Below are positions 1-61,933 of a stretch of DNA of 64,000 bases, piece by piece. Numbering within the stretch: position 1 is the stretch's first letter; each line of letters starts with the position of its first letter. The stretch is from a virus. Where the stretch lies: the IMG/VR virus record IMGVR_UViG_3300018917_000003. One strand, written 5' to 3'. A model generated the notes under the pieces. It ran no database searches. It saw only the letters and a program-made list of their open reading frames with translations, and was not told the origin of the DNA. A program made the translations under genes and the position numbers.

Positions 1-105
1 TAATGACTAATGACTAATGACTAATGACTAATGACTAATGACTAATGACTAATGACTAATGACTAATGACTAATGACTAATGACTAATGACTAATGACCA
101 ATGAC
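1..105. repeat. Tandem heptanucleotide array: (TAATGAC)x14 plus one CAATGAC unit, running off the left edge of the window
   Basis: Perfect 7-nt periodicity from nt 1-98, variant unit at 99-105. The same unit in the same orientation recurs at 57952-57993. Confidence 0.95.
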
Positions 106-130
106 TGACGATTGCCTCAAGCCGCTTTCT

Positions 131-25063: not shown

Positions 25064-28000
25064 ATGGCTAGCGGAATTAATGTAATTTTCTCTATTACGG
25101 ACTTAGCGAGTTCTGCGCTGGCTAATGTTCGATCGGAAATGTCAAGAGTTGCCAGCGGTATTACTGAAGCTAGTACCGCGCTTTTCTTTTGGAGCGAAGC
25201 TTTTGGTCAAATACAAGTCGCATCCAGTCAATTCTATGACTTATTTATTGGTCAAAATGAACGGATGCGCCAGGATATACTGGCAACTCAGTCTAGTTTG
25301 GCTGCCGTTCAAGACGTATATATGAACGGCATTAAACTAACAGATCCTACCGCTGCAATACAAGCTTTTGAAGCTCCCATTAAAAAGTCGTTAAATCAAA
25401 TTGCGGTTGATTCCTTACAACTTGTCGGAGTCACGTCGGGACAATTGACAGACCTGTTTCAGGTTGCGCTTACTAATGCAACGAAGATAACAGCACAATC
25501 TAAAGAGTTTGCAGATCCCATCAAAGCTGCTGAGCGTTTAACTATCTCGTTTGCGGGTGCTTTTGGTGCGCTTGGCATCCCTATGGAGCAAGCCGGTCAA
25601 GAGATGGGGAGTATCTTGACTGCTCAAATTGATTCAAATAGTGTTTTAGCTAAAGGTCTTGGTATTACCAATCAGCAAGTTAGCGCTTGGAGTTCACAAG
25701 GAAAATTAGTGGATCAACTTGTAGGTAGACTTGCTCCATTTGTTGCTGGCAATGCTCTTGCTGCAAAAAGTGTAGGCAGTATTTTATCAAACCTTCAAGA
25801 GATTGTAGAGGTAACAACTCGACTATCTGGCGAAAAACTAACAGATTTGTTTGTTGAAAGTCTTGATATTATTTATCAATATCTCACCAGCATTCAACCT
25901 CAGATTCAACAAACACTAGATAATGTCACTGGATTTATCGTTGGCACTGTCGATACTATAACAAAAATATTATTACCTTTTCTTCCAACCTTTGAATCTA
26001 TTCGTGATTCCATTTTAAGCATAGGAGGTTCTTTAGGTGAGATAGCTGGAGGTTCTTTCCAGTTATTTTTGGCAGGATTAACTGGGATAATGCCTGTTCT
26101 GATGCCTGTTTTTAATTTACTTGGGGAGATTCTGAAAGTTGTGTCAGCACTTTTGGCAGATCCAGTAATTCAACAGATAGTGCAATTCGCTATAGTTGTT
26201 ACTGCCATTGCAGGGCCTTTGGCAACTATTGCCACTTTAATGGCAACTATTTCTGGACTTTTTGCAGCAGGAGGTAGTATTGGGCTATTTGTGACAACAC
26301 TGACTATCATTGCGCCGCAACTGGCAGCCACAGTTCTAACGCTAGTTTCAGCGATGGCATCAATTGCAGGATTCGCTGGATCTGCGGGGGCTGTTGTAGC
26401 ATCTGGGTCGGCAATGGCTGTACTAGGTAGCGCAATAACCACTGTAGCTGTCGCACTTGGGCCACTAGCGTTGGCAATTGCAGCGGTAGCAGCAGCAGCT
26501 TATGCTTTCCAAAATGCAAAAGCAGGTGATGCAGCAGAAGCCCTTGACACGATCGGAACCCGGAGCGATCAATCTACTACTGGAGCTAATAACACAGCCT
26601 TGAAGTTGCGCCAATTACGAGATGCAGAAATTATTCAAGGTGAGTTGACTGATGAACAAAAAGCTAACCAAAAAGCGTTGAAAACGCAAGCTACTAACTA
26701 TTCGGCGCAGATAGAAGCCGACATCGCCGCAGCCAAAGCCGTAGACACAGTTGGCAATGAGTCATTGGAAAACGCCAAGCAAGCTCTTGTAGCCGGAAAT
26801 CAACGATCTTTAGATGTTTTGGGCAAGTATGTCGGCGGGCTATCTACCTCCGCAAAAGCTTTGGCAGAGTTAGGAGGAATTTTTACACAAACAGGGAACC
26901 AAGTTATAGGCTTTGAGAAGCAAATAAAAGAAGCAACCTCAGATGCTGAGTTCCAGGCTGCCAACAAAGGATTAGCGGAATTAATAAATACTCAAGTTGA
27001 GTCTGGACAAATCGGCGCAGAACAGGGAACCAAGCGTCTACAGCAGATATTGAGTGACACCAGGGTAGAGATTGATGGCAAAGAGGCGGCTCTAAAGGCT
27101 CTCGAAGCCATCCAAAATTTGCAGCTAGAAAATGAACTAAATGCCAACGAAATAGCTCAAAACGAAATCAACAAAATGCGGGAAGAGGGGCGCATTGGCG
27201 AAGTAAAAGCTGAGCAAGAACTTACCGATCTTAAATTGAAAGAAATTGCAGCCCAATCGGATTCGCAAAAAGCATCGCATAGAGAAAGGATGCGCCAGAT
27301 TCAAGAAGAAATGAATACGGCATTAGAGGTATTAGATAAGGAGATTGCCCAAAAACAATCGAATCTTGACAAACTGAAAAGCACTAACGTTCCTAAAGTT
27401 GAGATTGTACAAGCAGAGCGAGATTTGGCAAAATCTAAAACTGCGCGAAACACAAAACAATCAGAATTCGTGAATATTCAATCTGAACAAAACGATGACA
27501 ACGCTTTAAAGTCAGCAAAATTAGCAGCAGAAGCCGCCAAAGTAGAAAAACAACAGCGAGACCTTCGCAAGCGCGAAGCGTTAAAAGACTTTGACGAACG
27601 CCAAAAAATCAACGACTCAGCCCGCGAACGGGGACTGAAAGACAACCAGGAAGCGGCGCGGGAATCTATTCAGATTGCCAAAGGTAGAGCAAAATTAGAG
27701 CTATCTCAAATTAAAGACAAAACGGCAAAACTGGAAGCCGAAGCCAAGAAGCAAGGCAAAACAGTCAAAGAGTACGACAAGGAAGCATGGGAAGCTTTGC
27801 AAGTTCAACAAGCCGAAGCATTGCAGAACTTAGCAAAAGCCCGCAAGGATGGATTTGAAAAACGTTTGTCAGATATAAAACAGGATGCCCAAGAAGCTAC
27901 TGCCATTGTTGAAGCAGCCCAAGCAAAAAATGAGATTGACAACCAGAAAGCTGCTACCAAAACGGCAGAGATTGCAACTAAAAGCATCAACACTCAGATT

Positions 28001-31000
28001 GCCTTAATTGCCAAGGAAATTGCTGCAAACAAGGGTAACAAAGAGCGACTGGAAGAATTAAACGCAAAACGAGCGGGACTAGAGAAAGACTTAACCGAGA
28101 TTCAAAAAAAGCAACTACAGCAGCGATTGTCAGACTTACAACAGGATGCCGATGAACGAATTTCTGTCATAAAAGCAAGGAATGCCACGGGTGCGATTGA
28201 CAATCAGCAAGCCGCCAAGCAAACTGCGGCGATCGAATCGGCTAGCTCTAAAAATCAACTCCAGATTGTCCAATCTCGAATTGCCGAGGTAGTAGCGGCT
28301 GACAAGAAACGAGGCAAGGTCAGCACTGAGTTATTGGAAGAATTGAGAAAACAGGAAAGTAACACCCAAGTCAAAATCACTGAGATAACCAAGAAGGAGA
28401 TGGAAACACGATTGGCTGACCTAAAAGAGGATGTAGCCGAACGCACCGCTGTAGTCAAGGCTTCTCAGGCAACAGGCGCGATCAATAATCAAGCAGCAGC
28501 GACGCAGACAGCAACGATTGAGCGCACTGGAGCCAACCAGAGACTAGAAATTGTTCGCCAGCAGATTCAGCAAGTAGCAGCCGAGGGCAAAAAGTCGGGT
28601 AATATCAACGTTGAGTTGATGGAAACTTTGAGAAAGCAAGAAGCTGAAATCCAAGTCGAAATCACAGACATTGACAAAAAAGCGATGGAGTCACGACTAT
28701 CTGACTTGCAGCAAGATGCAGATGAGCGCGTAGCTGTCATCCAAGCAGCCAATGCACTGGGGACAAAAGAAAATCAGCAGACAGCTATTTCTACTTCTCA
28801 AATTCAGCAAAAAAGTGCAAACGATCAGCTAAAGATTGTACGAGAAAGAATTAATACGGTCATTGAAGAAGGCAAAAAATCAGGCAAAGTTAATACAGAA
28901 TTACTAGAAGAACTGCGTAAAAAAGAAGCAGACATCCAAGTTAAGATCACTGAGATTCAAAAACAAGAACTACAGAAGCGATTGTCAGATTTGCAACAAG
29001 ACGCCGAAGAACGAACAGCAATTATAACGGCTGCAAACGCAACGGGAGTGCTTGACAATCAAGAAGCTGCCACAAAAACAGCAAAAATTCAACAAAGTAG
29101 TTTAGAGTCTCAATTAAAACTAATTCAACAACGGATAAAGACGACTAATCCTGCTAGCAAGGAATTACTAGAAGAGTTGAGAAAACAAGAAGCGGATACT
29201 CAGGTTAAAATTACTGAAATTCAAAAACAAGAATTGCAAAAACGGTTGACAGATTTGCGCGAAGATGCTGACGAACGTACAGCGTTAATCGCTGCCGCTA
29301 ATGCGACGGGCATAATTGACAACCAGCAGGCGGCGGCGAAGACAGCTAAAGTTCAGCAGGATGGGTTAAACGCTGAACTTGAATTAGTTCGCAAACGTAT
29401 CTCAACAGTGGGTACAAAGAATAAAGAACTGCTAGAGGAACTGCGGAAGCAAGAAGCAGACATTCAAGTCAAGATTACCGAAGTGCAAAAGCAGGAGATG
29501 CAAAAGCGATTGAGCGATCTAGAGCAAGATGCAGCAGAAAGAATCGCCATCGCTGAATCGGCAAACGCCCAAGGGTTGCTAGATAACCAGCAAGCTGCTG
29601 TTGCCACTGCCAAAATCCAAGAGGCAAGCGCCAGTAAACAAATTGAGATTATTCGCAAACGAATAGACGAGATTCGTGCGCAAGGGCAGAAAACCGGAAA
29701 AGTTAACATCGAATTACTGGAAGAGTTGCAGGCACAGGAAGCTAACGCTCAGAAAAAAATTGCCGACATTCGGAAGCAGTTTTTACAGAAGCAACTTGCC
29801 GACCTACAGCAAGACGCCGACGAACGACTATCTGTCGTTACTGCCCAAAATGCTAAAGGCGATATTGACAATCAAGCTGCTGCTACTCGATCAAGCGCAA
29901 TTCAAAAGCAAAATCTAGACTCTCAGCTTACGCTCATCCAGAATCAGTTAAAAGTTGTCGGCAGAACAAACAAAGAATTACGCGAAGAGTTGCTAAAACA
30001 GGAAGCTGATATCCAGGTCAAGATTACCGAAATCCAGAAGCAAGAATTACAAAAGCGCTTAAGTGACTTACAACAAGACTCGCAAGAGCGCGTCTCAGTC
30101 GTTGAAGCTGCCGCAGCAATCGGGGAAAAAGACAACCAGCAGACGGCGACAGAAATAGAAAATATCCAGAGCCAAAGTGTCAAAAACCAACTTGAGTTGA
30201 TTCGAGAACGAATTGCTGCAACCAGTCCGCTAAATAAAGAACTAAATGAGGAGTTGAAAGCACAAGAATCCAAGCTACAAAAAGAACTCACAGAAATCCA
30301 AGAGCAAGGCTTTCAGAAGCGGTTATCAGATTTGCAACAGGATGGGGAGGAACGATTGGCAATAGTTACATCCGAGGGTGTTAGAGGTCTAGCGAATAAT
30401 CAAGAAACTGCTATAAAATCAGCAGCTATTCAAGAAGAATCAGCAGAGCAACAGTTAGCACTGATTCGAGAAGGATTGGGTCAGGCTAGCAGTGAACTTC
30501 GAGAAAAACTGCTAAAACAAGAAGCCGACACCCAAGCCAAAATTGCTGAGATTCGCAAGCAAGCTTTTGATAAACGGTTGGCAGATGTAGAGCAGGACGG
30601 TCAAGAACAGCAAGCGATTTTAGAGGGACAATTAGCGCAAGGACTGACAACTGAATCCGAGTATGCACAGGGGCGTTATAATCAAACCCTGCAATTCTTA
30701 GACGCTCAACTGGTACTAATCCGAGAACGCAGATCGCAAATGTCTGTATCTGACATTGAGGGACAGGAAGCGCTTGCGGCACAGGAAACGTCGTTACAGA
30801 AGCGACGACAGGATGCGCTGTCCCAATTCTTGGAAGCTCAGTTAAGCTTGCTCGATCGGGAAAACAAGAAAGCAACCGACCTGCTAGAACAGTCAGAACT
30901 TGACCGCAAACTGATAACCAAGCAAGCTGCATTATCTGGTGCTGCCGACAAAGATGCTGCCGCCACCGCCGAAATTCAGGCAACTCAGCGCCGAATCCAG

Positions 31001-32401
31001 CAGGAAATAGCGCTGGAGGAACAGAAAAATGCCACGCTGCGATCACTCCCGGCATTCTCTGACCCCGCAAAAGAAGCTGAGCGTCAGTCCAGAATCCGGG
31101 CATCAGTCAAGAAAACGACTGAACTAAGACTTCAATTGATAGATGAAGAGAAGCGAGCCTTTGATTTGTTGATTGACCGCCAGATAAAAGGCATTCAAAA
31201 CCAATCTAGAGCGCAAGAACTAGCGTCTGACGTGCAGGTACGAGCAATCGAGCAACAGGGCAAGCAGTACGACTTACTCAGTCAATCGCTAGAGAACCAA
31301 AACAAGCTTCTGCAATCACGCGCAAGTTTGGCTAACGCGCTCAATGGATACATCCAAGGCGAATATAAAATTTTGCAGAACAGCGCGGGTTCTGAAGGTG
31401 AACGCAAGCGACTCATAAAAGAAGCCGCAGACGCCCAACTGGTAGCGATGCAACAGCAGCAAATCGTAGCACAGAAAAATCTTGACATTGAAATCAAGCA
31501 GGCAGAGATTGCTCAAAAACGCGCAGAGTTTGAGGCAGAGATTGCAGAGATAAAAGCCCGCGCCGGGTCAGCTAAGGCTGACGCTGAAGTTCTCAAGGCT
31601 GAAGCCACACTGCAAAAAGTACAGCGCGACCCCAACGCCAGCAATGCCGATGTAGAAGCCGCCAAACTGGATGTTGTAGCCGCCCGTGCCGCTGCGGAGG
31701 CTGCTGTTGCTGATATTGCTTTTGCGATCGCAAATAAAGAAATGGTCGGGCAGAACGGAAAAGTTCTGAAAGTACAGAACGACCTAAAACGGGAAACACA
31801 GTTGATCGAGCAAGTAACCCAAAGACGGGCGGCACAGGCGCAGGCGATCGAGGCAATAGTAGACGAGAATGAGAAAAAGCTGAGACAGCGCCAACTAGCG
31901 GGACGTTTAACACCGGAAGAGTCAGAACGACTGGCACGGATTCAACGCGAGAACCAGCAACGCGAAGCCACCAGGCGACGAGATGAAATAGAGCGAAACA
32001 CATTGATGGGGATTGTTACGCCTAATGGGGTACGGCGGGGGATTCAAGCGGCTGGAGTGCGATCGGCTTCGTTGCTAGGCGAAATCGAGCAAACTGCGGC
32101 GACAGCGCCCAAAGTGCCGGAGCTGAAAAATTTGGTTGCCCAGATGAATATACAGCGACAACAGATTGCCACGGTTAAACCGGATGTCAATCCACTTATC
32201 AGGTTACAGGAAGAAAGCACGGGATACCAGAAAGAGATGCTTGGGGTGCTCAAGCAGCTTAATGGGAAGCCGACCCCCGCGCCCGTGACTCCAGTTTCTA
32301 ATAGTTTCAATATCAAAGCAGAAGCGGGAATATCCGAGGCACAAGTGCTAGGCGTGTTTAGTCAGGTGAGTCAGCAGGTGACACAAATGTTGAAGCGCTA
32401 G
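25064..32401 (+). CDS. Tail tape measure protein (2445 aa)
   Basis: Very large, alpha-helical, Ala/Gln/Glu/Lys-rich. It has a hydrophobic Gly/Ala-rich segment (aa ~330-500) typical of TMPs and long tandem coiled-coil repeats. Confidence 0.85.
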   Translation: MASGINVIFSITDLASSALANVRSEMSRVASGITEASTALFFWSEAFGQIQVASSQFYDLFIGQNERMRQDILATQSSLAAVQDVYMNGIKLTDPTAAIQAFEAPIKKSLNQIAVDSLQLVGVTSGQLTDLFQVALTNATKITAQSKEFADPIKAAERLTISFAGAFGALGIPMEQAGQEMGSILTAQIDSNSVLAKGLGITNQQVSAWSSQGKLVDQLVGRLAPFVAGNALAAKSVGSILSNLQEIVEVTTRLSGEKLTDLFVESLDIIYQYLTSIQPQIQQTLDNVTGFIVGTVDTITKILLPFLPTFESIRDSILSIGGSLGEIAGGSFQLFLAGLTGIMPVLMPVFNLLGEILKVVSALLADPVIQQIVQFAIVVTAIAGPLATIATLMATISGLFAAGGSIGLFVTTLTIIAPQLAATVLTLVSAMASIAGFAGSAGAVVASGSAMAVLGSAITTVAVALGPLALAIAAVAAAAYAFQNAKAGDAAEALDTIGTRSDQSTTGANNTALKLRQLRDAEIIQGELTDEQKANQKALKTQATNYSAQIEADIAAAKAVDTVGNESLENAKQALVAGNQRSLDVLGKYVGGLSTSAKALAELGGIFTQTGNQVIGFEKQIKEATSDAEFQAANKGLAELINTQVESGQIGAEQGTKRLQQILSDTRVEIDGKEAALKALEAIQNLQLENELNANEIAQNEINKMREEGRIGEVKAEQELTDLKLKEIAAQSDSQKASHRERMRQIQEEMNTALEVLDKEIAQKQSNLDKLKSTNVPKVEIVQAERDLAKSKTARNTKQSEFVNIQSEQNDDNALKSAKLAAEAAKVEKQQRDLRKREALKDFDERQKINDSARERGLKDNQEAARESIQIAKGRAKLELSQIKDKTAKLEAEAKKQGKTVKEYDKEAWEALQVQQAEALQNLAKARKDGFEKRLSDIKQDAQEATAIVEAAQAKNEIDNQKAATKTAEIATKSINTQIALIAKEIAANKGNKERLEELNAKRAGLEKDLTEIQKKQLQQRLSDLQQDADERISVIKARNATGAIDNQQAAKQTAAIESASSKNQLQIVQSRIAEVVAADKKRGKVSTELLEELRKQESNTQVKITEITKKEMETRLADLKEDVAERTAVVKASQATGAINNQAAATQTATIERTGANQRLEIVRQQIQQVAAEGKKSGNINVELMETLRKQEAEIQVEITDIDKKAMESRLSDLQQDADERVAVIQAANALGTKENQQTAISTSQIQQKSANDQLKIVRERINTVIEEGKKSGKVNTELLEELRKKEADIQVKITEIQKQELQKRLSDLQQDAEERTAIITAANATGVLDNQEAATKTAKIQQSSLESQLKLIQQRIKTTNPASKELLEELRKQEADTQVKITEIQKQELQKRLTDLREDADERTALIAAANATGIIDNQQAAAKTAKVQQDGLNAELELVRKRISTVGTKNKELLEELRKQEADIQVKITEVQKQEMQKRLSDLEQDAAERIAIAESANAQGLLDNQQAAVATAKIQEASASKQIEIIRKRIDEIRAQGQKTGKVNIELLEELQAQEANAQKKIADIRKQFLQKQLADLQQDADERLSVVTAQNAKGDIDNQAAATRSSAIQKQNLDSQLTLIQNQLKVVGRTNKELREELLKQEADIQVKITEIQKQELQKRLSDLQQDSQERVSVVEAAAAIGEKDNQQTATEIENIQSQSVKNQLELIRERIAATSPLNKELNEELKAQESKLQKELTEIQEQGFQKRLSDLQQDGEERLAIVTSEGVRGLANNQETAIKSAAIQEESAEQQLALIREGLGQASSELREKLLKQEADTQAKIAEIRKQAFDKRLADVEQDGQEQQAILEGQLAQGLTTESEYAQGRYNQTLQFLDAQLVLIRERRSQMSVSDIEGQEALAAQETSLQKRRQDALSQFLEAQLSLLDRENKKATDLLEQSELDRKLITKQAALSGAADKDAAATAEIQATQRRIQQEIALEEQKNATLRSLPAFSDPAKEAERQSRIRASVKKTTELRLQLIDEEKRAFDLLIDRQIKGIQNQSRAQELASDVQVRAIEQQGKQYDLLSQSLENQNKLLQSRASLANALNGYIQGEYKILQNSAGSEGERKRLIKEAADAQLVAMQQQQIVAQKNLDIEIKQAEIAQKRAEFEAEIAEIKARAGSAKADAEVLKAEATLQKVQRDPNASNADVEAAKLDVVAARAAAEAAVADIAFAIANKEMVGQNGKVLKVQNDLKRETQLIEQVTQRRAAQAQAIEAIVDENEKKLRQRQLAGRLTPEESERLARIQRENQQREATRRRDEIERNTLMGIVTPNGVRRGIQAAGVRSASLLGEIEQTAATAPKVPELKNLVAQMNIQRQQIATVKPDVNPLIRLQEESTGYQKEMLGVLKQLNGKPTPAPVTPVSNSFNIKAEAGISEAQVLGVFSQVSQQVTQMLKR
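27783..30735 (+). repeat. Eleven tandem in-frame units (254-287 nt, about 85-95 aa each) inside the tape measure gene
   Basis: The motif (Q)KRLSDLQQDA(D/E)ER..V..A.NA.G..DNQ.AA..TA.IQ.. recurs with its KRLSDL core near nt 27860, 28122, 28405, 28692, 28977, 29240, 29503, 29788, 30052, 30318 and 30572. Confidence 0.9.
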
Positions 32402-32597
32402 AAGCGAGAGCTAATTGGCTTACTCAAATAGATGAGTCTGTCACGCAGATTATTTGTATTTTATATACTTCCTACGTGACAGACTCAACTATTACATTGT
32501 CGACTCTATTTGTATTTTACTTGATGAGGTTGATTGAGTTTTGAAAACAAAAACAAAACAGTCTCAGCGGGTAGAATGAAGAAATACTTCTCGCTTC
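32401..32597 (+). repeat. Structured intergenic element, copy A
   Basis: GAAGCGAGAG...CTTCTCGCTTC termini. Hairpin arms at 32431-32445 and 32475-32487. It begins on the last base of the tape measure TAG. Confidence 0.9.
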
Positions 32598-32743
32598 AAA
32601 AACCTATCACCATCGCCAATTTCGGAAGAAACTCGTTAAGTTCTGACAGAAACTTTGATATTAGACTAGAGCCGAGAGCAAGCATATCGCCAAATTTCAA
32701 ATTGCTAGCCGACCGACAAAGACGGTTCCGGTATTCAGATTAA

Positions 32744-32953
32744 GAAGCGAGAGCAATTCCATCAAGGGGATGATCGCTTTTCTATGGATGAGTTTGTCAC
32801 GCAGATTATTTATATTTTATAACTTTCTACGTGACAAACTCATCTATTATGTCTTTGACTGTATCTACATTTTGACTGTAGAGGTTGTTTTAGTTTTGCA
32901 AGAGGAGATAAAACCAGTCTCAACAAGTGGAATAACTAATTTGCTCTCGCTTC
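32744..32953 (+). repeat. Structured intergenic element, copy B
   Basis: GAAGCGAGAG...CTCTCGCTTC termini. Hairpin 1 carries a compensated C-G to T-A change relative to copy A. Hairpin 2 arms at 32877-32887 and 32915-32925. Confidence 0.9.
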
Positions 32954-32984
32954 AAAACCTGATTGTCACGCAAATGTTGCAGCA

Positions 32985-33939: not shown

Positions 33940-34266
33940 ATGATCGACGCAACAATGATTCAATCAGCTCTCTTAGGAATGCAACAGGCAAGCGAAGCAA
34001 ACTTCAGTACAAAAACAGGCGAGAAATACAACAGAATCGGTTGGTGGTGGAAATCCTACATTGCCGAGACCTACTGCATGGAGATAATTGTATATCTCGA
34101 TAAAGCTTCACCGACAGGGTTCATGCTTGAAATTGACTACCTTGACGAAGATGCGGTAACAATCCTCAATAAGCCCCTCGTTACTTTTGAGGAATTCCAA
34201 GAAATCTTCACCAACAAAAAATTTCTCGCAACCGCGTTCAGAGCTTGGAAAAAAGCGAAGAAATAG
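33940..34266 (+). CDS. Hypothetical protein
   Basis: 108-aa ORF with GGGAAAAACAATG upstream. No motif. Confidence 0.5.
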   Translation: MIDATMIQSALLGMQQASEANFSTKTGEKYNRIGWWWKSYIAETYCMEIIVYLDKASPTGFMLEIDYLDEDAVTILNKPLVTFEEFQEIFTNKKFLATAFRAWKKAKK

Positions 34267-34364
34267 TTCACGCAACGCTCTCTACATAGGGCACACCCGC
34301 GCCCATCTATTCCAATCTATCTCACTTAACACACGTCTACTTCACTACACCTCATAGAAAAACC

Positions 34365-34946
34365 ATGCAATTATTAGCCGCCAAATTCAACCAAATCGCT
34401 TCAGCAATCGAAACCACCAACGCCCAAATCGCAGCCCTTCAAGCGAAATTGAGCGAACTTCAAGAACACCAACAACAACTCCTCTCAGTCGAGCAAGCTT
34501 GCCAGTCCGCACTTGCCCAAGTCGGGACAGCGCTGAGTATGCTCAATCATGTAGATCCCGCCGAAATTGGCACGTTTAAGGCGGCGGTTGAGGCACAGTT
34601 CGGGACTGACGCAATCGCCTTTCTAGAATCTACTACCCCCACACCAGCGGAACAGATCGAACCGGAACCGACTGCACCAACAGCACCACAACCCGCTGCA
34701 CCAGAGATTGAGCCTGTTATTGACGTGGAAGTGACCGCTACAAATACACCCGTCACCGACGCGCTGATCGAGCCAACCCCCACACCATCGGAAAAAATAG
34801 AAAGACTACTCGGCAAAATGTCACTCACTAACATCCGTAAGCTCGCCAAAAACAAAAAGGTAGACGCACGGGGAAATCTTCTCACTATCGCAGCGAGGTT
34901 AAAAGCAATCGTCACAGAGTCAGATATCTGGGACGCTACCACATAG
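34365..34946 (+). CDS. Hypothetical protein: N-terminal coiled coil, Pro/Thr/Ala-rich linker, C-terminal SAP/HeH-like motif
   Basis: 193-aa ORF. The C-terminal LTNIRKLAKNKKVDARGNLLTIAARLKAI resembles HeH/SAP DNA-binding motifs. Confidence 0.5.
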   Translation: MQLLAAKFNQIASAIETTNAQIAALQAKLSELQEHQQQLLSVEQACQSALAQVGTALSMLNHVDPAEIGTFKAAVEAQFGTDAIAFLESTTPTPAEQIEPEPTAPTAPQPAAPEIEPVIDVEVTATNTPVTDALIEPTPTPSEKIERLLGKMSLTNIRKLAKNKKVDARGNLLTIAARLKAIVTESDIWDATT

Positions 34947-34966: not shown

Positions 34967-35017
34967 AAAAAATGCGGTAGAAACACAGCAGCCTGTTTCT
35001 ACCGCATTTGCAGTTTT
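34967..35017. terminator. Bidirectional intrinsic terminator
   Basis: 13-bp stem TGCGGTAGAAACA (34973-34985) / TGTTTCTACCGCA (34994-35006), with an A-run upstream and a T-rich tract downstream. Confidence 0.75.
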
Positions 35018-35080: not shown

Positions 35081-35282
35081 GAAGCGAGACAACACTTAAC
35101 TTGGTTATCATTACAGATGAGTCTGTCACTCAGTTATTTGTATTTTATAACTTTCCTACGTGACAGACTCATCTATTGTATTCTGGACTCTAGTTATCTT
35201 CCACCTGTACAGGTTGCTTTAGTTTTGAAAATAGAAATCGAAGAAACTTCAACAGGTAAGATAGACAAATTGCTCTCGCTTC
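35081..35282 (+). repeat. Structured intergenic element, copy C
   Basis: GAAGCGAGAC...CTCTCGCTTC termini. Perfect 14-bp hairpin GATGAGTCTGTCAC (35116-35129) / GTGACAGACTCATC (35160-35173) with a 30-nt loop. Confidence 0.9.
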
Positions 35283-35303
35283 AACACCAGATCATTGGGT
35301 AGC

Positions 35304-49826: not shown

Positions 49827-49886
49827 GTGAGACAGGTACAAGTACGCCTCTTGTCGTCTTTTTTCGACAGGGCTTTTTTATGTCCT

Positions 49887-50084
49887 GAAGCGAGAGACAA
49901 TTTGTATAGGCTTATTGTTGAGCTTGTTGCTCAGATTTTTTATATTTATAATAATTCTACGTGACAAACTCATCTATTACATTGTCGCTTCTACTTACAT
50001 TCTGACTGTAGAGGTTGCTTTAGTTTTGAAAACAGAAATTAAACTAGCCTTAACAGGTGGAGCGAACAAAATGGCTCTTGCTTC
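49887..50084 (+). repeat. Structured intergenic element, copy D (left hairpin arm degenerate)
   Basis: GAAGCGAGAG...CTCTTGCTTC termini. The loop carries TATAAT. Hairpin 2 is conserved. Confidence 0.85.
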
Positions 50085-50143
50085 AAAACCCAGACTGTTG
50101 TTTGCGTTATCATTTAGGTAGACTTATTGCAAAAAATAAAATT

Positions 50144-50713: not shown

Positions 50714-50744
50714 AAAAAACCCGGAATGTTCCGGGTTTGTTTTA
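50714..50744 (+). terminator. Intrinsic terminator after the lysozyme gene
   Basis: AAAAACCCGGAATGTTCCGGGTTTGTTTT: GC-rich hairpin plus a T-run. Confidence 0.75.
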
Positions 50745-50749
50745 GCAAT

Positions 50750-50997
50750 CACGCAAGAGTTAGAACTTAGATCTATTGTTAAGTTTAGATTATGAGTTCA
50801 TCGGTTCAAACTTTCCAATCGATTCAGGTTTATTGCTGAGGCTGTCACTCAGATTTTTATATTCTATATCTCTTCTACGTGACAGACTCATCTATTATAT
50901 CTTCGACTCTATGGATATTCCACCTGTAGAGCTTGATCGAGTTTTAAAAAAATCAGAGCGACCTCAACCAGTGGAATAGGTAAATGACTCTCGCTTT
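50750..50997 (+). repeat. Structured intergenic element, copy E (longer, divergent left end)
   Basis: Hairpin 1, its loop and hairpin 2 are conserved. The right end is CTCTCGCTTT. The left end GCAAGAGTTAGAACTTAG is shared with a solo fragment near 43750. Confidence 0.8.
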
Positions 50998-51042
50998 AAC
51001 ACCCGCTCACCGCCACCAATTTTGCCAGAAACTCGTTAAACT

Positions 51043-51073
51043 CTGACAAAAACCTTTGATATTTTGGTATAAT
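51043..51073 (+). promoter_or_regulatory. Extended -10 promoter candidate for 51143-52183
   Basis: CTGACA (51043-51048) and TGGTATAAT (51065-51073). Followed by a nested 5'-UTR hairpin GCCACT..AGGACG..CGTCCT..AGTGGC. Confidence 0.55.
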
Positions 51074-51142
51074 TGAATATTAAGCCACTAGGACGTTAGA
51101 GCGTCCTTTTATCAGTGGCAGTCACCTAAACAACTAGGCAAC

Positions 51143-52585: not shown

Positions 52586-52636
52586 TGGCGGGGGCTGGTT
52601 TTCTGTTACAGGGTATAGGTTTGGGCGATTGGAAAA

Positions 52637-52688
52637 AAGAATTTTGGTTTAGGGGTTGACATGTCGAAGTAGATATACGATGATAGTC
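52637..52688 (+). promoter_or_regulatory. Conserved promoter-like block, copy 1 (AAGAATTTTGGyTTAGGGGTTGACA..AGTAGATATACGATGA)
   Basis: Near-identical to 53701-53753. TTGACA is at 52656-52661, about 60 nt upstream of the ATG at 52719. The -10 is not canonical. Confidence 0.45.
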
Positions 52689-53436: not shown

Positions 53437-53730
53437 ATGGACGAAACACAAAGACAAGCACAGCGCAAATACTCGGCAACAAGAAAGGGACGATCAAACC
53501 GTAACAAAGCACAGCGCAAATACTCGACGACAGAGGGAGCAAAGGAAGTCCAGCGCAAGTACGAGGCATCAGAGAAAGCCAAAGAGCGCAAGCGGCGGTA
53601 CTTTGAAAGTTTGACACCGGAACAGCGGGAGAGACTACAGGAAAACCAGCGCAAGGCTAAGCGGTTAAGCGCTCAACGGCGGCGGGAAAAAGAAAAGCAA
53701 AAGAATTTTGGCTTAGGGGTTGACACATGA
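53437..53730 (+). CDS. Small basic protein with three (A)QRKY(S/E) repeats
   Basis: AQRKYSATRKG / AQRKYSTTEGAKEV / QRKYEASEKAKERKRRY. Highly basic, probably nucleic-acid binding. Confidence 0.5.
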   Translation: MDETQRQAQRKYSATRKGRSNRNKAQRKYSTTEGAKEVQRKYEASEKAKERKRRYFESLTPEQRERLQENQRKAKRLSAQRRREKEKQKNFGLGVDT

Positions 53731-53753
53731 AAGTAGTAGATATACGATGACAG
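53701..53753 (+). promoter_or_regulatory. Conserved promoter-like block, copy 2
   Basis: Near-identical to 52637-52688. TTGACA is at 53720-53725. It overlaps the 3' end of 53437-53730 and lies about 60 nt upstream of the ATG at 53784. Confidence 0.45.
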
Positions 53754-55179: not shown

Positions 55180-55644
55180 ATGTTAAGACAAATCCAAACA
55201 AGCATTCTGGCAAGACTTGCCCCGGTGAGGGAGTTATTACATCCTGATGAGGTATTAGGTCAAAAGTTGCCTGATAATGCGTCAAGAATGACTCAAGAGG
55301 ACGCTCGAGATGTCGTAGTGTTCATTAGGGCCGGCAATATCCGAGAGATTCAGATAGAAGTCAATGTGTTGCTCTCTAGCCACGTTAAATCGTCTACCGA
55401 TTGCTTCCCAGTAGTCGAGAAAGTTTGGGGCCTGTTGCATACGTTTTTGCCCGATAGCGCCGCCGGAGTGCTAGCAAATATGAGTTGGGAATTAACGACT
55501 AACGGAACCCGCTGGCTAGCAAAATTCAACTACACGACGGCAATATCGCCTTATGTGTTCGAGTTCCCCGATCCGAAGGCTACTCTACCGGGTATTAACA
55601 ACATAACGTCACCGATCGCACCCTCTGCCACACTCCAATTCTGA
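55180..55644 (+). CDS. Hypothetical protein
   Basis: 154-aa ORF. Its TGA overlaps the first bases of repeat copy F. Confidence 0.5.
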   Translation: MLRQIQTSILARLAPVRELLHPDEVLGQKLPDNASRMTQEDARDVVVFIRAGNIREIQIEVNVLLSSHVKSSTDCFPVVEKVWGLLHTFLPDSAAGVLANMSWELTTNGTRWLAKFNYTTAISPYVFEFPDPKATLPGINNITSPIAPSATLQF

Positions 55645-55847
55645 AGCGAGAAATCACTCAGGTTTGATCTACCTGTATAGATGAGCCTGTTACTCAGATT
55701 TTTTATATTTATAATATTTCTACGTGACAAACTCATGTATTAGGTTTCCAATTCTACCTACATCCTGACTGTAGAGGTCGATCAAGTTTTGAAAGTAAAA
55801 GTTAAACCAATCTCAACAGGTAGGATTGATAAATGACTCTCCCCTCT
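55643..55847 (+). repeat. Structured intergenic element, copy F (right terminus degenerate)
   Basis: GAAGCGAGAA left end. The loop carries TATAAT. Hairpin 2 CTGTAGAGGT / ATCTCAACAG is conserved. Confidence 0.85.
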
Positions 55848-55876
55848 GAACTAGACAGCCGCCGCTGAAACAACCC

Positions 55877-55914
55877 AAAAAACCCGGCAGTATTTTAAAT
55901 CTGCCGGGTTTGGT
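55877..55914. terminator. Bidirectional intrinsic terminator
   Basis: AAAAAACCCGGCAG-TATTTTAAAT-CTGCCGGGTTTGG between convergent units. Confidence 0.75.
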
Positions 55915-57879: not shown

Positions 57880-57951
57880 ACGCTAACCATTTATGTCAAC
57901 AGACTTGAAAAGATTTTTAACGCAGAGCGGTAGAAACGAAAGAAAAATAAC

Positions 57952-57993
57952 TAATGACTAATGACTAATGACTAATGACTAATGACTAATGAC
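57952..57993. repeat. Tandem heptanucleotide array (TAATGAC)x6
   Basis: Same unit and orientation as nt 1-105. It directly abuts repeat copy G. Confidence 0.95.
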
Positions 57994-58000
57994 TGATGTA

Positions 58001-58169
58001 GAAGCGAGAGATAGTTTTGCTACCCATATGGTTGAGTCTGCTAATTGGTTAAATCTATTATATAGATTACTTGAGTAACAAACTCATCCATTACGACCTC
58101 GCGTCTATGAGTTTCTTGCCTGTAGAGGTTGCTTGAGTCTTGATTTAAAACTCTGTCTAAGAGAAAACC
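58001..58169 (+). repeat. Structured intergenic element, copy G (most degenerate)
   Basis: GAAGCGAGAG left end. Recognisable AACAAACTCATCCATTAC and CCTGTAGAGGTTGCTTGAG cores. Both hairpins are eroded. Confidence 0.7.
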
Positions 58170-58193
58170 GAAAAACTATCTTCAGTTTTTCCC

Positions 58194-59967: not shown

Positions 59968-59990
59968 TCAATCATCCCAAAAAACTATCA

Positions 59991-60016
59991 GACGGGCCGT
60001 TAGACCCGTCTTTTTT
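59991..60016 (+). terminator. Intrinsic terminator
   Basis: GACGGG-CCGTTAGA-CCCGTC followed by TTTTTT. Confidence 0.8.
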
Positions 60017-60021
60017 AGTTT

Positions 60022-60214
60022 GAGGCGAGAGAAGTTTTGCTGAATCCTATAGATGAGTCTGTCACTCAGATTTTTTATATTTATAATCTTCCTACGTGAC
60101 AAGCTCATCTATTGTATTGTCGCTTCTATCTGCATTCTGATTGTAGAGGTCGATCGAGTTTTGAAAATAGAAATCAAAACTGCCTCAGCAAATAAGAAAA
60201 ACAGATTGCTCCCG
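60022..60214 (+). repeat. Structured intergenic element, copy H
   Basis: GAGGCGAGAG left end. Hairpin arms at 60052-60065 and 60096-60109. TATAAT at 60082-60087. The right terminus is degenerate (TTGCTCCCG). Confidence 0.85.
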
Positions 60215-60266
60215 TTTTTCTATCCGCTCTCCCAAAAATCAATATAAACATATTTCATCTACAGGG

Positions 60267-60531: not shown

Positions 60532-61608
60532 ATGCTTTTGTCCATCAAAACAAAGTTAAAACTAAACAAGGATCAGGAAACAATTATGAGCAAACACGCT
60601 GGGATAGCGCGGTTTACTTATAATTGGGGCTTGGCTACTTGGAATAGTCTTTATCAAAATGGACTAAAGCCTAATAAAAATCTACTCAAAAAATTCTTCA
60701 ACAATCATGTAAAGACTGAGCTTGCATGGATGAAGGAAACGGGAATTTGTCAGAAAATAACTCAATACGCTTTTGACCATCTAGGGGATGCGTTTGCTAG
60801 ATTTTTTGCCAAAAGAAGTGATTATCCCAAGTTTAAAAAGAAAGGGCATTATGACTCTTTTACTATTGATACGGGCGGTAGACCTATCCCTGTGGGCGGT
60901 ACATCTATAAAGTTGCCGACAATCGGTTGGGTAAAAACTCACGAAGGGTTGCCTCATACAACTTGCAAGTCAATTACCATCTCGCGCACTGCCAATAGTT
61001 GGTTTATTGCGTTTGCTTACGAACAAGAACACGAGCCAACTGCTAAGAAGCATGATGTTGTAGGAGTTGACTTGGGAATTAAAGAATTGGCTACGCTTTC
61101 AACTGGTGTAGTATTCCAAAACCCAAAACACTATAAAACGCATCTTGCAAAACTCAAGAGATTGTCAAAAGTTTTCGCTAGGAAGGTAAAAGGTTCTGAA
61201 AATAGGCATAAAGCCAAAATTCAATTAGCAAGGCATCACGCTAAGATAGCAAATCTCAGAAAAAATACCTTGCACCAAATCACTACTTACTTATGCAAAA
61301 ACCACGCAAAAATAGTAGTAGAAGATTTGAACGTTTCTGGGATGCTAAAAAATCACAATCTAGCTCAAGTAATAGCTGATTGCGGGTTTTATGAGTTTAA
61401 GCGCCAATTGGAATATAAAGCTAAAAAATTTGGTTGTGAGATAATCGTTGCTGATCGCTGGTTTCCGTCAAGCAAGACCTGTTCAAATTGCGGACATATT
61501 CAAGATATGCCGTTAAAAGAAAGAACTTACGACTGCGGAAGTTGTGGTCATTCGATGGATAGAGATTTAAACGCAGCAATAAATTTATCGCGGTTGGTCA
61601 AATCGTGA
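60532..61608 (+). CDS. tnpB: TnpB (OrfB) RNA-guided nuclease, RuvC motifs intact
   Basis: 358 aa. RuvC-I VGVDLG, RuvC-II IVVEDL, zinc finger CSNCGH..CGSCGH, RuvC-III DRDLNAAINL. Confidence 0.9.
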   Translation: MLLSIKTKLKLNKDQETIMSKHAGIARFTYNWGLATWNSLYQNGLKPNKNLLKKFFNNHVKTELAWMKETGICQKITQYAFDHLGDAFARFFAKRSDYPKFKKKGHYDSFTIDTGGRPIPVGGTSIKLPTIGWVKTHEGLPHTTCKSITISRTANSWFIAFAYEQEHEPTAKKHDVVGVDLGIKELATLSTGVVFQNPKHYKTHLAKLKRLSKVFARKVKGSENRHKAKIQLARHHAKIANLRKNTLHQITTYLCKNHAKIVVEDLNVSGMLKNHNLAQVIADCGFYEFKRQLEYKAKKFGCEIIVADRWFPSSKTCSNCGHIQDMPLKERTYDCGSCGHSMDRDLNAAINLSRLVKS

Positions 61609-61690
61609 AACCTTACCGAGGGATAACCGCTCCCATGCTCCCAATGAAGTAAGAAGCAAAAACTAGATTTGTCTAGTATTTGTCTGACAG
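61450..61690 (+). ncRNA. Putative omega-RNA (reRNA) scaffold overlapping the tnpB 3' end and right end
   Basis: By analogy with characterised TnpB systems. The segment 61588-61690 is conserved in a second copy and ends in a CTAGA-TTTG-TCTAG hairpin. Extent not determined. Confidence 0.4.
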
Positions 61691-61750
61691 ATGAAGGTGT
61701 AGCGGATTTTACTTTTGATATCAGTTTATCTGGTGGTGCAAAAAATGTTA

Positions 61751-61853
61751 TTGCGGTTGGCTAAACCGTGAAAGCTTACTGAGGGATAACCGCTCCCATG
61801 CTCCCGTTGAAGTAAGAAGCAAATGCTAGCTTTGTCTAGTCTTTGTATAGCAG
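61751..61853 (+). repeat. Solo second copy of the tnpB 3' terminus / right end (about 85 percent identical to 61588-61690)
   Basis: It retains the last ~8 codons and TGA of a tnpB (LLRLAKP* versus LSRLVKS*) plus the downstream ~80 nt, 163 nt after the first copy. Confidence 0.85.
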
Positions 61854-61933
61854 AGGGTCTAAAAAACCAAACCGAGACAGACGAATTACAAGCGGAACCA
61901 ACCAAAACAATTATTAGAGGCGTATGGATCTAA

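What the first reader, a model, noticed from the sequence alone, without database searches (positions are those of the whole stretch)
32877..32925. Hairpin 2 of the element pairs through G-U wobbles that only work on the + strand RNA
In copy B, TGTAGAGGTTG (32877-32887) pairs with CAGTCTCAACA (32915-32925): 8 Watson-Crick pairs, 2 G-T/T-G pairs and 1 mismatch. In copy F, CTGTAGAGGT pairs with ATCTCAACAG and again uses a G-T pair. One position is T-G in copy B but T-A in copy F.

On the complementary strand these positions would be C-A mismatches. That favours a function as + strand RNA (or + strand ssDNA) over a symmetric duplex-DNA site. The loop (TTTAGTTTTGAAAAyAGAAAT) is itself conserved.
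Basis: seen in the sequence. Interest (0 to 1): 0.6.

Follow-up and report, generated by a model that had tools for sequence, protein, structure and literature searches.

The report
Weak hairpin in phage intergenic repeat
The hairpin is real and is the right-hand module of a roughly 200-base repeat that marks gene-cassette boundaries in a small group of cyanophage-like viruses, but its G-U pairs are only weak evidence that it works as plus-strand RNA.

Summary

The hairpin belongs to the long form of a ~200-nt intergenic repeat.
- This 110-kb virus record holds 20 copies, 11 of them long.
- A related 152-kb phage holds at least 24 copies, 10 of them long.
- I found none in other collections or in 301 genomes sampled from the order of a Nodularia genome (taken as candidate hosts).

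Across the 21 long copies, 84% of cells pair, against 34-47% in slid registers. Evidence that pairing is selected is thin:
- There is no covariation above shuffles.
- Stems diverge as fast as the loop between positional orthologues.

The plus strand folds somewhat better (mean -15.9 vs -12.5 kcal/mol). Eight of 21 copies fold as well or better on the minus strand.

G-U cells outnumber A-C cells 65 to 29, but slid registers give similar ratios, so arm composition explains most of it. Hairpin 1 of the same element shows the opposite bias (24 vs 41).

The element is best read as a PeSL-like boundary cassette:
- a sigma-70-like motif sits inside hairpin 1;
- intrinsic terminators lie beside many copies;
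- positions are kept between the two phages;
- copies are homogenised within each genome;
- gene-order breakpoints between the phages fall at copies.

Whether it acts as RNA is untested.

The parts
32877..32887 (+).
   Evidence: exact sequence at these coordinates
32915..32925 (+).
   Evidence: pairs with 32877-32887 as 8 Watson-Crick + 2 G-T + 1 A-A
32866..32936 (+). Whole hairpin 2 of copy B: outer stem, A-A mismatch, middle stem, apical part
   Evidence: 79 bits with model R1; fold z = -0.67
32401..32600 (+). Element copy A, long form. Starts at the stop codon of the 2445-aa ORF. Hairpin 2 at 32511-32580.
   Evidence: hairpin 2 z = -4.09 on plus, -0.90 on minus
32744..32956 (+). Element copy B, long form, in tandem with copy A
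35081..35285 (+). Element copy C, long form. Hairpin 2 at 35195-35265. Its 5' flank matches one copy of the related phage and its 3' flank matches another.
49887..50087 (+). Element copy D, long form. Hairpin 2 at 49996-50066. Preceded by a terminator-like hairpin at 49849-49872 and followed by the lysozyme gene.
50804..51000 (+). Element copy E, long form that lacks the left terminal repeat. Hairpin 2 at 50914-50980. Terminator-like hairpin upstream at 50718-50737.
55643..55850 (+). Element copy F, long form. Starts at the stop codon of ORF 55180-55644. Hairpin 2 at 55759-55829. Bidirectional terminator follows at 55879-55911.
   Evidence: (z = -2.45 plus, -2.46 minus)
58001..58190 (+). Element copy G, short form. 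It has the 5' arm of hairpin 2 but neither the 3' arm nor the right terminal repeat. A sigma-70-type promoter for the sliding-clamp gene follows.
60022..60225 (+). Element copy H, long form with a degenerate right end. Hairpin 2 at 60131-60201. Preceded by a strong terminator at 59990-60011.

Best explanation
Hairpin 2 is the right-hand palindromic module of the long form of a ~200-nt intergenic repeat cassette that is specific to this phage lineage. The cassette has a terminal inverted repeat, a strongly conserved hairpin 1 with an A/T-rich loop, a middle segment, and then one of two tails. One tail is hairpin 2 plus the right terminal repeat (long form). The other is a different tail that often ends in an intrinsic terminator (short form).

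The cassette most likely works like the PeSL promoter/stem-loop cassettes of T4-type phages. It is regulatory punctuation at the borders of gene cassettes, and it supplies dispersed homology where recombination shuffles cassettes between related phages.

Within that frame, hairpin 2 is probably transcribed in the sense orientation, either by read-through or from the sigma-70-like motif inside hairpin 1. It would then fold as an imperfect, wobble-tolerant RNA stem-loop that attenuates, processes or stabilises transcripts.

Shown here: copy number, the two forms, conserved positions, homogenisation within genomes, breakpoints at copies, flanking terminators, and base complementarity.

Inferred only: promoter activity, transcription of the element, and any RNA role of hairpin 2.
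For: Copies.
- 20 copies on the 109,786-bp record, on both strands.
- At least 24 copies in a related 151,712-bp phage whose sliding clamp is 59% identical.
- The long and short forms are distinct.

Conservation.
- About a dozen copies sit at positions that correspond by their flanks, and the form is kept between the two phages. I judged this by eye from the flanks.
- Twelve positional pairs are 72-83% identical, like the mostly coding flanks at 68-88%.
- Copies cluster by genome rather than by position (6 label changes vs 14.8 in shuffles).

Gene-order differences between the two phages break at copies.
- Copies A and B are adjacent here. In the relative, a block of three or four ORFs (two of them orthologous to window 33940-34946) plus an element copy lies after A's orthologue, and further ORFs follow before B's.
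- Copy C carries the 5' flank of one relative copy and the 3' flank of another.
- The surroundings of the lysozyme gene differ by blocks that end at copies.

Regulatory signals.
- A sigma-70-like motif with a 17-nt spacer lies in hairpin 1, with the -35-like hexamer in the stem and the -10-like hexamer in the loop. By my count from the alignment, the -10-like hexamer is the consensus TATAAT in 29 of 44 copies.
- Seven copies are directly preceded by a same-strand intrinsic terminator, and at least 9 are followed by one.

Hairpin 2.
- 84% of cells pair, against 34-47% in slid registers.
- The plus strand is modestly more stable.
- In tandem gene contexts the element is co-oriented 15 to 4.

Defining features of PeSLs are taken from PMC2839356 and PMC4122927.
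Against: - No expression data exist. Promoter and terminator activities are untested.
- The last base of the -10-like hexamer is T in only about two thirds of copies (my count).
- The element is several times larger and more elaborate than a PeSL, with terminal inverted repeats that PeSLs lack.
- Hairpin 2 has no U-tract after it, so it is not a standard terminator.
- Hairpin 2 shows no covariation and no slower stem evolution.
- Many copies lie between convergent genes (15 of 44). A promoter there would fire antisense into a gene.
- Only two genomes could be compared.
Confidence: 0.4

Rival explanations
1. A cis-acting structured plus-strand RNA element whose helices are under selection. It could act like the RNase III processing and stabilising hairpins between T7 genes. 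Or it could be a multi-copy small RNA or leader transcribed from the motif in hairpin 1, with hairpin 2 as its main domain.
For: - Hairpin 2 is more stable on the plus strand on average.
- G-U cells outnumber A-C cells 65 to 29.
- Orthologue substitutions keep plus-strand pairing more often than minus-strand pairing (33 vs 12).
- Co-orientation is 15 to 4 in tandem gene contexts.
- Several short-form copies are followed by an intrinsic terminator about 160 nt from the element start, which is the layout of a small RNA gene.
Against: - The G-U excess is matched by slid registers.
- No covariation exceeds shuffles.
- Stems are not more conserved than the loop.
- Hairpin 1 has more A-C than G-U cells (41 vs 24), and the terminal repeat is neutral.
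- Seven copies lie just after a terminator.
- The orthologue of copy B lies antisense within a run of minus-strand genes in the relative.
- No Rfam family matches.
Confidence: 0.2
2. A non-autonomous mobile element (MITE-like) that spread within the ancestral phage genome. Its hairpins and terminal repeats would be relics or transposase recognition sites, and its regulatory and recombination effects would be by-products.
For: - Terminal inverted repeat of 10 nt, extendable to roughly 16-18 imperfect bases by my reading of the alignments.
- About 200 nt long, many dispersed intergenic copies on both strands.
- Long and truncated forms.
- No conserved ORF. The frame set at the ATG-like site in hairpin 1 stays open for 6 to 64 codons, and only 23 of 42 copies have ATG there.
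Against: - I saw no target-site duplication in the flanks.
- The protein-family scans of the ORFs I sampled found no transposase other than one unrelated tnpB. nhmmer finds no element-like sequence at that tnpB's ends.
- No copies in 301 genomes sampled from the order of a Nodularia genome (taken as candidate hosts), in plasmids or in phage records.
- Copies differ by 20-40%, yet positions and forms are kept between two phages.
- The two terminal repeats do not co-vary.
Confidence: 0.2
3. Duplex-DNA binding sites for a phage or host protein, such as an operator, stoperator-like roadblock or nucleoid-type organiser. The arms would be half-sites, and hairpin formation would be irrelevant.
For: - Primary sequence, not only pairing, is conserved. 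The 3' arm of hairpin 1 is almost invariant even where the 5' arm has changed and two pairs are lost, and the loop is conserved too.
- The 5' arm of hairpin 2 is kept in short-form copies that have no 3' arm.
- Genome-specific variants of the upper part of hairpin 1 recur across many copies, as expected if sites track a trans factor.
- Orientation linked to transcription is also known for the stoperators of cluster A mycobacteriophages (from my own knowledge, not checked here).
Against: - No candidate binding protein was identified.
- Arms of 14-19 bp separated by 22-30 bp are unusual for operators.
- Hairpin 2 folds better on one strand, which a duplex site does not predict, although the effect is small.
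Confidence: 0.15
4. Plus-strand single-stranded DNA hairpins, either recognition structures of an IS200/IS605-type (PATE-like) element or priming/replication signals.
For: - G-T mismatches are tolerated in such DNA hairpins (from my own knowledge).
- Two hairpins whose arms share a short core motif could correspond to left and right ends. This is my reading and is not statistically tested.
- The phage carries a tnpB gene.
Against: - No Y1 transposase turned up in the ORFs scanned.
- Elements of that family have no terminal inverted repeats, and their hairpins are short with small loops (from my own knowledge).
- The orientation of copies alternates locally with gene orientation rather than in long replication-linked runs.
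- The tnpB ends are unrelated to the element.
Confidence: 0.05

Closest known systems
PeSL (promoter-early stem-loop) cassettes of T4-type phages (PMC2839356, PMC4122927)
   Same: - Dozens of repeated intergenic cassettes per phage genome.
- A sigma-70-like promoter motif combined with a stem-loop that can overlap the -35/-10 boxes.
- Placed at the borders of variable gene cassettes.
- Differences between related phages are bounded by copies, pointing to recombination between copies.
   Different: - About 200 nt with two hairpins, a terminal inverted repeat and two alternative 3' tails, instead of a short promoter plus G/C-rich stem-loop.
- Found in a non-T4, siphovirus-like cyanophage lineage (distant head-protease similarity to S-CBS4 and CL131).
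- Promoter and terminator activities were measured for PeSLs and are untested here.
- No sequence relationship.
RNase III processing hairpins between genes of phage T7 (from my own knowledge)
   Same: - Several sense-oriented imperfect hairpins with internal loops between genes of polycistronic units.
- They would leave a stabilising 3' hairpin on the upstream message.
   Different: - T7 sites are single hairpins of about 60 nt without terminal repeats or an internal promoter motif, and their cleavage is demonstrated.
- Here no processing data exist, and some copies lie behind terminators or antisense to their neighbours.
Bacterial intergenic MITE-like repeats with RNA-level effects: Correia/NEMIS of Neisseria, ERIC of enterobacteria, BOX of pneumococci (from my own knowledge)
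   Same: - Structured intergenic repeats of 100-200 nt with terminal inverted repeats.
- Long and short or modular forms.
- Co-transcribed with neighbouring genes.
- Can carry promoters and affect mRNA processing.
   Different: - Those are chromosomal families with tens to hundreds of copies in bacteria, and for Correia elements a TA duplication.
- This family was seen only in two phage genomes, shows no target duplication, and was not found in 301 genomes sampled from the order of a Nodularia genome, taken as candidate hosts.

Membership tests
PeSL cassettes (T4-type phages) | Sigma-70-like early promoter consensus in the repeat | tested here: inconclusive
   A -35-like hexamer in the stem, a 17-nt spacer and a -10-like hexamer in the loop of hairpin 1. 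By my count, the -10-like hexamer is the consensus in 29 of 44 copies and its last base varies. Activity is untested.
PeSL cassettes (T4-type phages) | Stem-loop adjacent to or overlapping the promoter that acts as terminator/attenuator | tested here: inconclusive
   Hairpin 1 overlaps the motif and hairpin 2 follows it. Neither has a U-tract. Separate intrinsic terminators flank many copies. Function cannot be tested with these tools.
PeSL cassettes (T4-type phages) | Copies flank variable genes, and differences between related phages are bounded by copies | tested here: met
   Synteny breaks at copies A/B, C and around the lysozyme gene when compared with the 152-kb relative.
PeSL cassettes (T4-type phages) | Short composite motif of T4-type myoviruses | tested here: not met
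   The element is about 200 nt with a terminal inverted repeat. The phage has no detectable T4-like kinship in the searches run. It therefore works like a PeSL but is not a member.
MITE (non-autonomous transposon) | Terminal inverted repeats | tested here: met
   A 10-nt inverted repeat at both ends of long-form copies. 148 of 200 cells are Watson-Crick in 21 copies.
MITE (non-autonomous transposon) | Target-site duplication flanking the repeats | tested here: not met
   The flanks of the long copies show no direct duplication (read by eye).
MITE (non-autonomous transposon) | Partner transposase or autonomous element with the same ends; copies in host genomes | tested here: not met
   Among the ORFs I scanned, only an unrelated tnpB. 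No element copies in 301 genomes sampled from the order of a Nodularia genome, taken as candidate hosts (the two weak hits are not copies). The end motif occurs once per genome in 29 of 301 genomes, with broadly similar numbers for the reversed-pattern control.
Any Rfam RNA family | Match at the family's gathering score | tested here: not met
   No match in the whole window at gathering thresholds. With E-value thresholds on four copies, only generic hairpin hits far below gathering.
Hammerhead ribozyme | Conserved catalytic core flanking stem II, followed by the second core block | tested here: not met
   A few copies have a core-like heptamer in the 5' arm of hairpin 2, but most differ at an essential position. 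The second core block is not placed after the stem, and Rfam finds nothing.
IS200/IS605-type PATE | Subterminal hairpins without terminal inverted repeats, mobilised by a Y1 transposase | tested here: not met
   The element has terminal inverted repeats. No Y1 transposase was found in the ORFs scanned. The ends of the resident tnpB element are unrelated.
Structured RNA with selected helices (general criterion) | Compensatory covariation above background | tested here: not met
   Four pairs show double changes, against a shuffle mean of 4.0-4.8. The covariation score equals the shuffles. Power is limited: 21 sequences from two genomes.

The most novel reading that the evidence does not exclude
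The elements are a multi-copy family of phage genes for small RNAs or leaders. Each copy would fire from the sigma-70-like motif in hairpin 1. Short-form copies would give an RNA of about 120 nt ending at the intrinsic terminator. Long-form copies would give a longer RNA whose main domain is hairpin 2. The near-invariant 3' arm of hairpin 1 would be the 5' end of all these RNAs, and it is complementary to the 5' arm present in every read-through message. That would make a phage-wide RNA-RNA regulatory network of 20 or more loci.
Probability: 0.15. Interest if true: 0.65.

Novelty: new variant of a known kind. Interest (0 to 1): 0.3.

Why it matters
Taken alone, the hairpin is a minor feature. 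Its wobble pairs do not settle whether the element acts as RNA or DNA.

The element it belongs to fills about 4% of a 110-kb cyanophage-like genome. It is kept in place in a diverged relative and marks the points where gene cassettes have been exchanged. If it is a PeSL-like boundary cassette, recombination-prone regulatory repeats would be a more general route to mosaic phage genomes than the T4 group alone suggests. It would also give a handle for finding cassette borders in uncultured cyanophages.

The methodological point is also useful. A G-U versus A-C count is not evidence of strand unless it is compared with registers that carry no structure.

Tried and rejected
**Searches for more homologues**
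- blastn of a copy against plasmid and phage records: nothing.
- A 22-nt pattern in viral and genome contigs: nothing.
- A looser 16-nt pattern in viral, genome and metagenome contigs: many hits, but nhmmer confirmed only the one related phage.
- Sliding-clamp relatives: single-protein queries found nothing. The alignment query and P0022 found only the same 152-kb record. The metagenome scan found none.
Contigs holding closer clamp relatives (88%, 85%, 76% identity) could not be fetched.
- Earlier findings searched by sequence: nothing.

**Structures considered and not supported**
- A middle hairpin between the mid segment and the 5' arm of hairpin 2: not in the consensus fold of 44 copies.
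- A long-range stem between the end of hairpin 1 and the long-form tail: not predicted.
- A closing stem formed by the terminal repeats: no compensation and no strand bias.
- The RNAalifold inner helix of hairpin 2 is dominated by one U-G column. An alternative register pairs 75% of cells. I left the apical part unassigned.

**Other readings rejected**
- Protein-coding: the frame is not kept.
- Hammerhead or any Rfam family.
- Phage-specific RNA polymerase promoter: no polymerase was found among the large ORFs, which look like tail fibre and structural proteins.
- Host-derived repeat.

Full report
**1. Observation**

The two 11-nt arms are at the stated coordinates. They pair as 8 Watson-Crick, 2 G-T and 1 A-A. 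Copy F behaves as described.

It comprises:
- an outer stem of up to ten pairs;
- a conserved A-A mismatch;
- an A/U-rich apical part whose register is ambiguous.

Copy B alone folds no better than shuffled sequence (z = -0.67). Copies A, C and D have z near -4 on the plus strand and near 0 on the minus strand. Copy F is equal on both strands.

**2. What it belongs to**

The window is the minus strand of a 109,786-bp virus record. A profile of the eight window copies finds 20 copies on that record, on both strands. They fall into two forms.
- Eleven long copies have a left terminal repeat, hairpin 1, a middle segment, hairpin 2 and a right terminal repeat.
- Nine short copies share everything up to the 5' arm of hairpin 2. 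They then continue with a different conserved A-rich tail, often ending in a G/C-rich bidirectional terminator.

Hairpin 2 as a complete helix therefore exists only in long copies. A covariance model of it finds no solitary copies.

**3. Relatives**

The neighbouring sliding-clamp protein has relatives in public assemblies. An alignment of them retrieved one IMG/VR record of 151,712 bp whose clamp is 59% identical. That record carries at least 24 copies, ten of them long.
- By their flanks, about a dozen copies occupy corresponding positions in the two phages, and the long or short state is the same (my reading).
- Twelve such pairs are 72-83% identical. The mostly coding flanks are 68-88% identical.
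- No copies were found elsewhere: plasmid and phage records, pattern scans filtered by nhmmer, and 301 genomes of the order of a Nodularia genome.

**4. Is the helix selected, and on which strand?**

I aligned the 21 long copies (A3 for the whole element, A4 for hairpin 2).

*Pairing.* 84.3% of cells pair, against 34-47% in slid registers. With the RNAalifold structure the figures are 90.1% against 40-51%.

*Covariation.* There is none above shuffles. Four pairs show double changes, against a shuffle mean of 4.0-4.8. Nearly all variation is on one side of a pair.

*Strand stability.*
- RNAalifold gives a consensus of -4.3 kcal/mol on the plus strand and none on the minus strand.
- Mean MFE is -15.9 vs -12.5 kcal/mol. 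The plus strand is better in 13 of 21 copies (Wilcoxon p = 0.04).
- Mean z is -1.98 vs -1.16, and z is below -2 in 10 vs 7 copies (p = 0.08).
- Several copies of the relative do not fold beyond chance on either strand.

*Wobble count.*
- In the 17 outer and middle pairs there are 65 G-U cells against 29 A-C cells.
- Registers slid by 1-4 columns give G-U fractions of 0.47-0.72 overall and 0.57-0.91 for the core. The observed fractions are 0.69 and 0.85.
- The bias therefore largely follows from the base composition of the two arms.

*Other helices and orthologues.*
- Hairpin 1 in 44 copies has 24 G-U against 41 A-C cells. The terminal repeat has 16 against 17.
- Between eight orthologous pairs, stem columns differ at 28.4% and the apical loop at 30.3%.
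- Of 68 pair changes in those orthologues, 33 keep plus-strand pairing and 12 keep minus-strand pairing. Thirty-one break the pair in one member.

*Net result.* A real but weakly constrained palindrome with a modest plus-strand advantage.

**5. Context**

Gene calls here are crude ORF calls.
- 30 of 44 copies follow a co-oriented ORF, and several start at its stop codon.
- Where both neighbours point the same way, the element is co-oriented 15 times against 4.
- One exception is confirmed by orthology. The counterpart of copy B lies antisense within a run of minus-strand ORFs in the relative.
- Seven copies are directly preceded by a same-strand intrinsic terminator, including D, E and H in the window. 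At least nine are followed by one.
- Several copies sit just upstream of canonical promoters of the next gene.
- Hairpin 1 contains a sigma-70-like motif: the -35-like hexamer in the stem, a 17-nt spacer, and the -10-like hexamer in the loop. By my count, the -10-like hexamer is consensus in 29 of 44 copies.
- The 3' arm of hairpin 1 and the loop are conserved beyond what pairing needs.

**6. Recombination**
- Copies cluster by genome rather than by position. Genome-specific variants of hairpin 1 recur across copies. Together these indicate homogenisation.
- Gene order differs between the two phages at the copies.
  - A and B are adjacent here. In the relative, a block of three or four ORFs (two of them orthologous to window 33940-34946) plus a copy follows A's counterpart, and further ORFs lie before B's.
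  - Copy C joins the 5' flank of one relative copy to the 3' flank of another.
  - The neighbourhood of the lysozyme gene differs by blocks ending at copies.

**7. Interpretation**

These features match the behaviour described for PeSL cassettes of T4-type phages: a promoter plus a stem-loop, intergenic, bounding shuffled cassettes (PMC2839356; PMC4122927). The element fails membership on size, architecture and phage type.

I therefore read it as a new, larger variant that works like a PeSL. Hairpin 2 would be its optional right-hand module. An RNA role for hairpin 2 is plausible but unproven.

Rivals are given with their odds in the Rival explanations section: a selected plus-strand RNA, a MITE-like mobile element, a duplex protein site, and single-stranded DNA hairpins.

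**8. Annotation used**
- Lysozyme, sulfotransferase, sliding clamp and tnpB.
- Regulator-like, glycosyltransferase and RusA-like proteins.
- Methyltransferases and a helicase-like protein.
- Tail-fibre-like large ORFs.
- A head protease distantly like those of Synechococcus phage S-CBS4 and Aphanizomenon phage CL131. The CL131 paper reports no such repeats (PMC6293099).

Noticed in passing
window 51091-51114: A 16-nt perfect G/C-rich hairpin followed by a T-run lies just after an extended -10 promoter (51065-51073) and before gene 51143. Near-identical hairpins follow another element copy outside the window and the orthologous copy in the related phage. It could be a conserved leader attenuator.
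   Followed up: partly
window 6-110 and 57950-57998: Tandem arrays of a 7-nt unit. From my own knowledge, heptamer arrays of this kind are typical of filamentous cyanobacteria and their phages. The second array abuts the left end of element copy G.
   Followed up: no
window 52635-52672 and 53699-53736: Two 87%-identical 38-nt segments, each ending in a consensus -35 hexamer preceded by a G run. The same G-run plus -35 motif also follows copy H at 60264. This is probably the phage's own promoter type, distinct from the element.
   Followed up: partly
window 27863-30607: Eight or so tandem repeats of 264-285 nt lie inside the 2445-aa ORF (25064-32401), which ends at the first base of element copy A. 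The ORF has no Pfam match.
   Followed up: no
window 60532-61854: A tnpB gene (OrfB_IS605 and Cas12f1-like TNB domains) with two 84%-identical 114-nt copies of its 3' end region (61578-61691 and 61741-61854). It is unrelated in sequence to the element.
   Followed up: partly
L350 (related phage, record positions 89837-89953): The related phage has an extra, degenerate partial copy of the element right after the orthologue of copy A. Several ORFs between its copies have no counterpart in this window.
   Followed up: partly
window 34970-35009: A 16-bp perfect hairpin with its strong T-run on the minus strand lies upstream of copy C. Transcripts of the minus-strand tail-fibre operon would therefore cross copy C in antisense before terminating.
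   Followed up: partly
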